Assembly: GCF_036588685.1 (NCBI RefSeq)
Contig: NC_086383.1
Span: 46,128,001-46,192,000, forward strand
Length of the DNA stretch: 64,000 bases
Direction of reading: 5' to 3'
DNA from: Mytilus trossulus
Taxonomy: Eukaryota
The translations under genes and the position numbers were made by a program. The notes under the pieces were generated by a model. That model did not search any database. It was not told the DNA's origin and was given only the letters and a program-made list of their open reading frames with translations. Below, in pieces: positions 15,901 to 18,571 of this stretch. The first letter of the stretch is position 1. Each line of letters begins with the position of its first letter.

Positions 15901-18571
15901 CTTCTTTGAAATTTGAGCCGGTATTGGTTTGTTTCGGGGAGGCCTTTTCCTCTTTTAATATTTTCGGGGTTGCTCCAGAATTTCTGCATTCTACTTCAGC
16001 AGTTTGTCCCGTCGAATTTTTCATTTTACGGAAATCATCCTCTGAAAAACTTTCACTTTGAGATGACACGCTATTGACTAAAGACTTCTTTGCTATTCCA
16101 TCCTCAGATTTCGAACTTATAGCTGAAATATGGTTAGTGCCAGATATATTACTATTTATGATAGCGAGTGAAGGAGCAATATTGTTGGATTTTTCGACAG
16201 TTCTCGTATCGTCTGATTCTCTCAGCTTTGACTTGCTGATACAATTAGTTGTTTTCGTCGTTAACTGTTCATGACAGGTGTCTGTCGATGGTAATCCTGG
16301 AATTGAAATCTTAAACGAAATAAACATTTTAATTTAAATGAGATAACGTGAAATATAATAAATATATAATAAAAAGACTTAATATTTATTCTGAAAAGAA
16401 GATTTTGTGTCAGAATATATTTATTGCGTACTTGTATTTCCCTCGTACAAAAACCCCATTTTGAACGTTTGTAAGGAAAACAAATTACTAAACCTTCTTA
16501 TCAATATAAGGTATGCGTAGTCAGTTTAGATGCGGATTACTCATTCAATATAAATGTAATCTAAATGATACGTTTTGACTGTAAACTTACAGTTCGCGAA
16601 TCTTGTCATTATACTTCATATATACACTAAATTGATATCTCTATGTCTTTTGGTATTGATACCAAGAACGTTTGACATATTTTGGATTTTCAAACGTTTG
16701 AACTCGAGCATACGTAAATTAATGGTTCCAGAATTACTCGTCTTGTCCCACTAAAATCCGTATCCTTTATAAATGAGGTTCATTGTTTTAATCTCGTACT
16801 TTTAAGGTGAAGTGCATGATAACGTAACTCGGCGGTATTTTTTGGTGTTAAATAAACCTGATAAATGTTGTATGCAGTTATAATCGTTCTGAATCTGAAT
16901 CTGAATACTGATCAACGGATATGTATAGCACTTACACTTCCGGGGACAAAACTAAGATCAATACAAAAAAATCTAAAGTTTGATAAAAATCAATAGCTAA
17001 GATGAGCTCACAATAACTTTCACATCATCAAACAGATATGTTCACAGCAATAACGTACTATTTCTTAAATTTAAATTACAAATAACGACAGGGACAAGGA
17101 AACCGAAAAGTCTTCTTTCAAATGACAAAATAACAAAAAAGTTCAAACACATCTAAGTAATAGAAGACAATTGTCATAGTTCTGACTTGAGGCATACTAA
17201 ATTAAGTGTGTACTGGATTAAGAGAAGTATTTTTTTCTTAGTCGATTTTTGCGCTTTCTATATTCGTGAATCTATTTATGTATATACGCTGCATTTGCCG
17301 CTTAATGATATACACTATTATCACTAGCCCAGTAGTCAGCACTTCGGTGTTGACATGAATATCAATTATATGGTCATTTTTATAAATTTTCTGTTTACAA
17401 AACTTTTGAATTTTTCGAAAAACTAAGGATATTCCTACACCCAGGAGTAAATTACCCTAGCCGTATTTGGCACAATTTTTTTAGAATTTTGGGTCCTCAA
17501 TGCTCTTCAACTTTGTATTTGTTTGGCTTTTTAACTGTTTTGATCTGAGCGTCACTGATGAGTCTTATGTAGACGAAACGCGCGTCTGGCGTATTAAATT
17601 ATAATCCTGGTACCTTTGATAATTATTTACACCACTGGGTCGATGCCACTGCTCGTGGACGTTTCGTCCCCGAGGGTATCACCAGCCCAGTAGTCAGCAC
17701 TTCGGTGTTGACATGAATATCAATTATATGGTCATTTTATAAGTTTTCTGTTTACTAAACTTTTGAATTTTTCGAAAAACTAAGGATATTCTTACGCCCA
17801 GGAGTAAATTACCTTAGCCGTATTTGGCACATTTTTTTTGAATTTTGGGTCCTCAATGCTCTTCAACTTTGTATTTGTTTGGCTTTTTAACTGTTTTGAT
17901 CTGAGCGTCACTGATGAGTCTTATGTAGACGAAACGCGCGTCTGGCTTATTAAATTATAATCCTGGTACCTTTGATAATTATTTCCCATGAATCAGAAAA
18001 TCAAATAATTTTAAAAATATTCAAACTTATCAAAAGATGTATACTTCGACTTTAACATGTATTATTGATATCTTTTGAATAAAAAAATATGGGGGTGTAA
18101 TGTAAGAAAGCCAATGACGTAAAAAAGACTCAAACGAGTTTTACTATGATATACGTTTTCTAGCTATAAACTTTGTCATATGCATGTATAAAATCTAAGT
18201 AATCTGATTACCTTTGTTGTGCTTCCACCATTTAACTGAACTTCAGTTATGTTTGGTTCTTTTGATAAATATGTGAGACTTCGACTTTTACTATCCAATT
18301 CTTTATCAGCTTTGTTATTTGATCTTGAAATTCCTTGATCTAGTCGGTTTGCTTTTCCAATAGTTGTTGGTAAAGACGTTGCAAACGACCCTGCATGTGA
18401 TTTTATTTTTGATGTTCTCATACTTGACCCTGGTTTCGTTTTGCTAGCATTTCCTGGACTATTTATGTCTTCCCCAAATATTACATTTTGTTTGTCTTTT
18501 GTGTGTTTGTGTATAATAATTCTCCCTTGATCTTCTTTGCTCTTTGATTTATTTGAATCTTTAGTCGCCAT
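12881..18571 (-). CDS. DTX3L: Gene A: Deltex-family (DTX3L-like) E3 ubiquitin ligase, macrodomain + RING + DTC, ~656 aa; exons 18571-18212, 16309-14993, 13639-13422, 12956-12881
   Basis: GT-AG junctions in phases 0/0/2 join into one ORF. It contains a macro-like fold ([31 protein letters not shown]), a C3HC4 RING ([17 protein letters not shown]) and DTC motifs ([53 protein letters not shown]). The symbol means 'like'; orthology is untested. Confidence 0.9.
13180..13440 (-). repeat. Degenerate ~50-58 bp tandem repeat built from the exon 3/intron junction
   Basis: About 5 copies of atgttgacaaatct...ttacct.gcaggtcct. Confidence 0.7.
13422..13639 (-). CDS. Gene A coding exon 3 (DTC core)
   Basis: 218 nt encoding [72 protein letters not shown]; donor AG|gtaaat. 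Not in the ORF track. Confidence 0.93.
14857..14958. repeat. (CT)n microsatellite ending in (CTCGAT)n
   Basis: Seen directly; ~35 nt into gene A intron 2. Confidence 0.95.
14993..16309 (-). CDS. Gene A coding exon 2 (linker, macrodomain, RING, start of DTC)
   Basis: Lies within ORF 14972..16327; acceptor tttaag|ATT and donor TTG|gtgagt. Confidence 0.92.
17549..17592 (+). ncRNA. Type I hammerhead ribozyme, intact
   Basis: GCGUCA-CUGAUGA-GUCU uaugu AGAC-GAAA-CGCGCG-UC^UGGCGU; predicted cleavage after 17586. Confidence 0.88.
17905..17948 (+). ncRNA. Type I hammerhead ribozyme (one stem I mismatch)
   Basis: Same core; predicted cleavage after 17942, 356 nt from the first site. Confidence 0.83.
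18212..18571 (-). CDS. Gene A coding exon 1 (low-complexity S/K-rich N-terminus)
   Basis: An acceptor lies just before the start (tttcag|tcATG) and the donor AAG|gtaatc is in phase 0. The exon is homologous to the first exon of copy C. Confidence 0.7.

What the first reader, a model, noticed from the sequence alone, without database searches (positions are those of the whole stretch)
17318..17982. Tandem hammerhead-ribozyme repeats (retrozyme) able to release a 356-nt monomer, inside a gene A intron
Seen: two type I hammerheads with intact CUGAUGA/GAAA/GUC cores, 356 nt apart. Stem III is only the palindrome ACGCGCGU, which implies dimeric double-hammerhead folding. Known, from memory: ~350-390 nt non-LTR retrozymes that yield circular RNAs have been reported in Mytilus, so the class is not new, but standard annotation misses it. 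The near-identical units suggest a young copy. It is antisense to the host gene, so it would not cut the pre-mRNA.
Basis: partly seen in the sequence, partly recalled or inferred. Interest (0 to 1): 0.7.

Follow-up and report, generated by a model that had tools for sequence, protein, structure and literature searches.

The report
Mussel retrozyme carrying Naiad start signal
This is one partly decayed copy of a very common mussel repeat with hammerhead self-cutting RNA motifs, likely the family already shown to make small RNA circles, and the repeat shares a predicted folded RNA segment and a fixed end point with Naiad jumping genes, whose enzyme likely copies it into the genome.

Summary
Observation confirmed: two type I hammerheads 356 nt apart, antisense in an intron of a Macro-RING-Deltex gene. 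It is one of 11,823 exact core copies, most likely the described Mytilus non-LTR retrozyme family. Three first-reader inferences weaken. Dimer folding is not required, because the published mussel monomer cleaves. The second hammerhead has a rare stem I change predicted to impair it. RNA reads come from other copies. The larger result is at family level. In an even 1-Mb sample, 52 of 75 3' ends fall 36-54 nt after the cut site, while 5' ends scatter. Directly after that point lies a 63-nt structured element, 83-86% identical to the 5' leader of a hammerhead-less Naiad Penelope-like element (28 of 30 copies), whose own copies end at the same position. Naiad reverse transcriptase therefore likely starts there on circular or uncut RNA. 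Both units share variants found nowhere else, which fits one circle read 1.9 times. A general retrozyme-PLE link is in a 2026 preprint; I found no paper on the Naiad pairing. This scan noted the Naiad link before on other DNA.

The parts
17319..17984 (+). Retrozyme insertion, subfamily A, 1.87 units; 5' end truncated at monomer position 91, 3' end at +42 after the second cut site; no convincing target-site duplication
17549..17592 (+). Type I hammerhead 1, intact; predicted cut after 17586
17905..17948 (+). Type I hammerhead 2; core intact, stem I mismatch from G>T at 17947; predicted cut after 17942, predicted impaired
17587..17942 (+). Predicted 356-nt monomer between the cut sites; 39% GC; circular fold -79.4 kcal/mol, z -1.3 against 60 shuffles
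17608..17615 (+). TGGTAYCT motif 13-14 nt before the fixed insertion end; same motif and distance in Naiad 3' ends (second copy 17964-17971)
17631..17693 (+). 63-nt element shared with the Naiad 5' leader (82.5-85.7% identity), three stacked helices with compensatory changes; inferred reverse-transcriptase recruitment signal
17693..17715 (+). UUCG hairpin followed by ATG, aligning with the short hairpin and start codon of the Naiad ORF
16310..18211 (-). Host intron between the first two coding exons of P0001 (Macro + RING + Deltex C-terminal, DTX3L-like)
18212..18580 (-). Host coding exon upstream of the intron
14993..16309 (-). Host coding exon with Macro and RING domains
9834..10802 (-). 5'-truncated Naiad-type PLE copy (RT C-terminus and 3' end), the family proposed as partner
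42484..43515 (+). Older subfamily B array of the same retrozyme family, three hammerhead cores, about 364-nt period
44576..44808 (+). 5'-truncated subfamily B copy ending at the fixed 3' site
21874..22951 (-). Two decayed copies: a short A-type at 21874-22014 and a C-type at about 22605-22951

Best explanation
The locus is a partly decayed, antisense intronic copy of a hammerhead-bearing mussel repeat, likely the described Mytilus non-LTR retrozyme, that was likely pasted in by the reverse transcriptase of a hammerhead-less Naiad Penelope-like element, which would recognise a shared folded RNA element and start copying at a fixed point about 42 nt after the hammerhead cut site. Steps: (1) Family members are transcribed (shown here for the family by RNA reads; strand likely the hammerhead strand). 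(2) Multimers self-cleave and monomers are ligated to circles (shown in the literature for M. galloprovincialis, not tested here). (3) Naiad protein binds the 63-nt element (inferred from homology and covariation). (4) Its GIY-YIG nuclease nicks AT-rich DNA and its RT starts just 5' of the element and runs back through the cut site (the fixed ends and read-through are shown; the enzyme is inferred). (5) Here it went 1.87 times round one template (inferred from shared private variants). (6) The copy has since mutated; hammerhead 2 is predicted impaired and no expression of this copy is shown, so it is probably a passenger in the intron.
For: Fixed 3' ends: 52 of 75 at +36..+54, against 6 of 76 5' ends in that window and 5% expected (100 evenly spaced 10-kb stretches). 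45 of 49 3'-intact copies are 70 nt or longer and so run through the cut site, which a cleaved linear monomer cannot template. Naiad copies stop about 14 nt after the same TGGTAYCT motif: 29 of 30 loci, the 30th continuing into a tandem unit. 28 of 30 copies found by the ORF N-terminus carry the 63-nt element right after that end site, and the 2 exceptions are cut at the start codon. The exact junction 29-mer occurs 94 times. The element is the only significant similarity between subfamilies A, B, C and a whole Naiad unit, and 5 Naiad loci have no hammerhead core. Named structure: 92.3% of 688 cells paired vs 86.3 +/- 0.7 shuffled and 35-45% slid; 43 cells changed on both sides vs 18.8; a divergent element at L189 keeps helices 1 and 2 through further double changes. 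The partner has the Naiad layout: N-terminal GIY-YIG motif, CxC, DKA, then RT (criteria). In vitro, a PLE RT starts internally, needs RNA 3' of the start site, and genomic ends match the start sites (PMC11167929). The two units share 5 variants found in 0-2 of 20-21 other arrays; a two-variant pattern occurs only in these two units genome-wide, against 4,416 for the common form. 1,622 of 8.7 million RNA reads lie on the repeat and none on the flanks.
Against: No biochemical test of binding or copying. The count of pairs with a change on both sides (8 of 29) is reached by 109 of 500 shuffles, and the changes are a few family-level events; I chose the 24 rows from 106 distinct cores and extended the RNAalifold structure by eye. 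The +36..+54 window was set after seeing ends, and three pairs of sampled segments look like local duplicates. Homology shows ancestry, not present use; other PLE clades are in the genome (RT-then-GIY-YIG fragments at L192 and L177) and were not surveyed. The Pfam scores for the partner are weak (GIY-YIG E 0.021, RVT_1 E 6e-5, both under cut-off). Circle and uncut multimer cannot be told apart by these data; PLE hammerhead cleavage was dispensable in vitro. Sequence identity with the published circles could not be checked. The monomer's fold is not unusually stable (z -1.3).
Confidence: 0.72

Rival explanations
1. One reading: this particular copy is active and releases a 356-nt circle through an obligate double hammerhead.
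For: Both cores are intact; the double fold is 5 kcal/mol better than two single folds at 37 C and 7 at 20 C; the palindrome is kept in 97 of 116 distinct subfamily A/B contexts.
Against: Hammerhead 2 has a stem I mismatch seen in about 1% of copies, which also creates a hairpin that hides the core. The same weakened stem serves cut 2 in the double fold. The locus-private C at 17654 is in 2 of 569 RNA reads, and 27 of 1,622 reads are 99% or more alike (other individuals, who may lack the insertion). The published mussel monomer cleaves. Only 1 of 9 Xenopus dimers cleaved in vitro.
Confidence: 0.2
2. Naiad RT copies uncut multimeric or read-through transcripts rather than circles; the hammerhead and the circles are bystanders to transposition.
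For: Hammerhead cleavage was not needed and unprocessed RNA was the dominant substrate for an anole PLE in vitro. The genome has long homogeneous arrays that could supply multimers. RNA reads cross the cut site with no pile-up of ends.
Against: The two units share variants absent from every other exact match in the assembly, so no source array with them is present. Circles were the dominant form in mussel tissue. Naiad itself spreads without a hammerhead, yet subfamilies A, B and C all keep one.
Confidence: 0.3
3. The Naiad-like segment is a relic of origin or an internal promoter, and another PLE or LINE mobilises the family.
For: The segment lies in the Naiad 5' leader, where Penelope has its internal promoter (passage). 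Canonical PLE fragments exist in the genome. Xenopus retrozymes resemble pLTRs of other PLEs.
Against: Insertion ends coincide with the Naiad end site and motif spacing. Paired changes fit an RNA fold. The segment is kept in at least three diverged subfamilies while the rest shows no Naiad similarity.
Confidence: 0.15
4. Ordinary satellite DNA spread by DNA-level recombination, with the hammerheads carried passively.
For: Arrays of more than 70 units exist.
Against: 39 of 49 3'-intact sampled copies are shorter than one unit and share one 3' end with scattered 5' ends, the signature of reverse transcription; one head-to-head inverted pair of PLE type.
Confidence: 0.03

Closest known systems
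Mytilus galloprovincialis non-LTR retrozymes (Cervera and de la Pena 2020, PMC7229834; parts 1-4 of 6 read, supplement unreadable)
   Same: Mussel host, type I hammerheads in 350-390 bp tandem repeats, low GC, thousands of copies, more than one subfamily, transcribed.
   Different: Sequence identity with the published clones was not testable. The text read names PLEs only as candidate mobilisers and reports no fixed end or shared element; the 2020 review says no motif points to the partner (PMC7761336, passages).
Xenopus retrozymes as non-autonomous PLE derivatives (Li, Clavereau, Pollet 2026, bioRxiv 10.64898/2026.07.22.740005; parts 1-3 of 5 read, supplements closed)
   Same: Retrozymes share sequence with PLE termini and are proposed to hijack PLE machinery.
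   Different: Vertebrates only for the homology test; no occurrence of mussel, mollusc, bivalve or initiation. There the link is to pLTRs; here the partner lacks a hammerhead and the shared piece is the end-site and leader element, not the ribozyme.
Naiad Penelope-like elements (Craig et al. 2021, PMC8557442; passages, part 2 of 10, one supplement search)
   Same: N-terminal GIY-YIG, CxC, DKA, partial tandems, 5' truncation, no canonical hammerhead, abundant in bivalves; the partner here fits.
   Different: The partner's N-terminus differs by eye from the listed Naiad_Mgal protein, so it may be another family. Non-autonomous partners are described there for Chlamys (MRC1), not for Naiad, in the passages read.
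Anole Poseidon PLE in vitro (Frangieh et al. 2024, PMC11167929; parts 1-2 of 4 read)
   Same: RT starts internally near the pLTR-ORF junction, needs RNA downstream of the start site, and genomic ends match start sites; AT-rich targets.
   Different: A different PLE clade with its own hammerhead; the start lies inside the ORF there, and upstream of the start codon here.

Membership tests
Type I hammerhead ribozyme | Core CUGANGA / GAAA / UH with stems I-III, stem I open | tested here: met
   hammerhead 2 has one stem I mismatch
Type I hammerhead ribozyme | Self-cleavage | not testable with these tools
   No assay; folding predicts a cost of 7.4 (first) and 12.1 kcal/mol (second) to reach the fold
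Metazoan non-LTR retrozyme | Type I hammerhead in each unit of a 150-450 bp tandem repeat, GC under 45-50% | tested here: met
   356 nt, 39% GC
Metazoan non-LTR retrozyme | High copy, dispersed, dimers to long multimers, non-coding | tested here: met
   only 50-72 aa stop-to-stop frames overlap the element
Metazoan non-LTR retrozyme | Transcribed | tested here: met
   Family level only: 1,622 reads in raw RNA run X24; not shown for this copy
Metazoan non-LTR retrozyme | Accumulates as circular RNA | tested here: inconclusive
   Reads cross the cut site and some joints go back 354-359 nt, but tandem transcripts give the same pattern
Mytilus retrozyme of Cervera and de la Pena 2020 | Sequence identity with the published clones | not testable with these tools
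   Supplement too large to read; GenBank entries not held
Obligate double hammerhead (amphibian type) | Stem III of one pair only, poor monomer cleavage | tested here: not met
   Stem III has two pairs and a tetraloop; the published mussel monomer cleaves
Naiad PLE (partner) | GIY-YIG endonuclease N-terminal to RT, CxC and DKA motifs | tested here: met
   Motifs visible; Pfam weak, under cut-off
Naiad PLE (partner) | Partial tandems, 5' truncation, no canonical hammerhead | tested here: met
   About 3,290-bp tandem units; 0 cores in 5 of 5 loci scanned
Non-autonomous PLE derivative | Shares terminal or junction sequence and insertion end with an autonomous PLE | tested here: met
Non-autonomous PLE derivative | Mobilised in trans by that PLE protein | not testable with these tools
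   Needs an in vitro or cell assay
Viroid-like RNA with ribozymes in both polarities | Second hammerhead on the minus strand | tested here: not met
   The minus-strand look-alike reads CUGGUGA in 331 of 348 unit reads and CUGAUGA in 5, has a mismatched stem II, and is the reverse complement of the Naiad-shared element

The most novel reading that the evidence does not exclude
Mussel retrozymes are chimeric parasites: a hammerhead module that makes stable RNA circles, joined to the captured reverse-transcriptase landing structure and start site of a ribozyme-free Naiad. Naiad RT rolls round these circles. The 63-nt fold is the cis-signal for internal initiation by Naiad RT and would be enough to make any circular RNA a substrate for genomic integration.
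Probability: 0.45. Interest if true: 0.75.

Novelty: new variant of a known kind. Interest (0 to 1): 0.52.

Why it matters
The locus itself is ordinary: one of many thousands of copies, probably inert. The family-level result matters because the mobiliser of animal retrozymes was an open question, and the RNA signal for internal initiation by PLE reverse transcriptases is undefined. Here a named candidate enzyme with long open frames, a 63-nt structure with natural compensatory variants and a start site mapped to a few bases make both questions directly testable. It also separates the ribozyme from the mobilisation signal, which argues against the idea that retrozymes are simply detached hammerhead-bearing pLTRs. 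The family covers about 1.9% of a 1-Mb sample and default Rfam misses it.

Tried and rejected
Second hammerhead on the minus strand (17690-17640): rejected, non-canonical core and explained by the Naiad-shared element. Target-site duplication: only 5-8 nt AT-rich or self-overlap matches in 11 of 14 insertions and none in 3, not convincing. Empty-site allele: no joint skipping the whole insertion among those shown in four contig runs; flank cover was patchy and 630 joints were not displayed, so no verdict. Read ends at the cut sites: none piled up, uninformative for this library. The run search listed no holder on record as RNA. Library strandedness could not be calibrated because no reads lay on the host exons. 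5' ends at the cut site: only 3 short sampled copies start within 4 nt of it, no clear excess. Orientation bias in introns: not testable without annotation. Unusual stability of the circle: not seen (z -1.3). Two short motifs were not found in the one supplement file held for Craig et al.; nucleotide consensus files may not be held. Literature searches for the Naiad pairing: searches found no paper stating it; the library lacks most subscription journals, and unseen supplements of PMC7229834 and the 2026 preprint may bear on this.

Full report
1. The observation. The repeat spans 17319-17984 with period 356; the overlapping parts of the two units are 300 of 308 identical with 2 gaps. Each unit has a type I hammerhead with an intact core, a 4-bp stem II and ACGCGCGU as stem III; the cuts fall after 17586 and 17942. 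Rfam scores them at 33.0 and 27.8 bits against a gathering score of 34, hence no hit in the default scan. The host is a Macro-RING-Deltex gene on the minus strand. An identical annotated protein, labelled Mytilus trossulus by the tool, joins the exons on either side, so the element lies antisense in the intron 16310-18211.

2. The family. The exact 32-nt core occurs 11,823 times in G000, control 0. In 100 evenly spaced 10-kb stretches there are 79 segments in 51 stretches, 18,619 of 1,000,000 bases. At least three subfamilies exist, and all three have copies in this window. Host, unit size, GC and copy number match the M. galloprovincialis non-LTR retrozymes, which self-cleave, are ligated by RtcB in vitro and accumulate as circles (PMC7229834, parts 1-4 of 6). 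I could not compare sequences because the supplement was unreadable, so membership of that exact family is inferred.

3. This copy. Hammerhead 2 has G>T at 17947, seen in 77 copies against 7,254. It breaks a stem I pair and creates a hairpin that hides the core. The fold cost is 12.1 kcal/mol, against 7.4 for hammerhead 1; 1 of 19 intact-core copies is as high. These are secondary-structure predictions without tertiary contacts or Mg2+. The double-hammerhead fold is 5 kcal/mol better than two single folds, but a dimer is not required in the published mussel assay. RNA run X24 (about 6% read) gave 1,622 reads, all on the repeat; first mates were mostly on the minus strand in 5 of 6 bins; 27 reads were 99% or more alike, and the locus-private base at 17654 was in 2 of 569. 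The family is transcribed; this copy is not shown to be. No empty allele was seen, but cover was too thin to judge.

4. How copies arise. Insertions have a fixed 3' end and scattered 5' ends. This was first seen in closely related loci and then counted in the even sample: 52 of 75 3' ends at +36..+54 after the cut site against 6 of 76 5' ends, with 4 and 3 segments dropped at stretch edges. The window was chosen after seeing ends, and a few segments are local duplicates; neither changes the picture. 39 of 49 3'-intact copies are shorter than one unit, and 45 of 49 extend through the cut site, so the template was a circle or an uncut multimer. The two units here share 5 rare variants, and a pattern with two of them occurs only at these two places in the genome. 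One template read 1.87 times is the simplest reading; local gene conversion is not excluded.

5. The partner. A PLE fragment at window 9834-10802 ends about 14 nt after the same TGGTAYCT motif that precedes retrozyme ends; 29 of 30 related loci end there. In the even sample, 22 of 78 non-retrozyme hits end within -8..+4 of that site and none of the upstream hits passes +7. The 30th locus continues into the next tandem unit, and what follows is retrozyme-like sequence, then an ATG and a GIY-YIG ORF. Searching with that ORF start, 28 of 30 copies have the 63-nt segment, 82.5-85.7% identical to window 17631-17693. It is the only significant match between the three subfamilies and a whole unit, and 5 loci scanned have no hammerhead core. 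Of 500 random 356-mers, 10 hit that region at 40 bits or more: 5 are retrozyme segments, 4 Naiad 3' ends and 1 the L189 element. Domain order and CxC and DKA motifs fit Naiad, though Pfam scores are weak. The segment folds into three helices plus a hairpin before the ATG, with 92.3% of cells paired and paired changes between families; the number of covarying pairs alone is not above the shuffles.

6. Mechanism. An anole PLE protein starts reverse transcription internally, needs RNA 3' of the start site, and its genomic ends match the start sites (PMC11167929). The same geometry holds here: start site, then the structured element. I infer that Naiad protein binds the element on retrozyme RNA, nicks AT-rich DNA and copies back through the ligated or uncut hammerhead junction. 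Shown here: ends, homology, structure support, family transcription. From the literature: cleavage and circles in a sister species. Inferred: binding, the enzyme, the circular template.

7. Known and new. The class and probably the family are described. A 2020 review says no motif identifies the partner (PMC7761336, passages). A 2026 preprint links Xenopus retrozymes to PLE pLTRs and does not mention mussels or initiation. Searches found no paper pairing a retrozyme with a Naiad. This scan's own notes record the same link on other DNA of this genome and another genome; I reached it before looking, and those notes are not counted as support. Verdict: real feature, ordinary and probably decayed locus, with a testable family-level mechanism; interest 0.52.

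Noticed in passing
L189:8113-8400 (G000:C10): Short element of a few hundred bases with a repeated end sequence, a divergent copy of the same folded leader (compensatory changes) and an ATG; no match to the retrozyme body or hammerhead was found. Possibly a ribozyme-free non-autonomous Naiad derivative.
   Followed up: partly
window 25045-29165 (-) and 12884-18580 (-): Two tandem Macro-RING-Deltex (DTX3L-like) paralogs, 65% identical over the shared region.
   Followed up: partly
L214:7307-7469: Two truncated retrozyme copies joined head to head with a 2-nt gap, the inverted arrangement typical of PLE insertions.
   Followed up: partly
G000:C1:269-303 kb and C1:47.15-47.32 Mb: Very long homogeneous retrozyme arrays (more than 70 units), satellite-like; L042 and L043 show the same flanks in inverted orientation.
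   Followed up: no
L131:4296-4387, L165:124-215: A fourth sequence type carrying the shared element and hairpin with a different upstream flank; whether it has a hammerhead was not checked.
   Followed up: no
L051, L055, L060, L162: Several insertions have 5' ends at monomer positions 25-34, just past a whole number of turns from the start site; may echo the PLE tail.
   Followed up: no
L192, L177: Fragments with a GIY-YIG-type domain at the end of the frame (after RT-like sequence in L192), that is canonical PLE layout; no match to the shared element nearby.
   Followed up: partly
window 31419-34280: 63-bp tandem array of 45 copies; further arrays at 37519-38230, 43638-44258 and 58669-62174.
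   Followed up: no
L016: Retrozyme arrays repeated in a unit of about 1.05 kb next to TTAGGG-like sequence near the start of C1.
   Followed up: no
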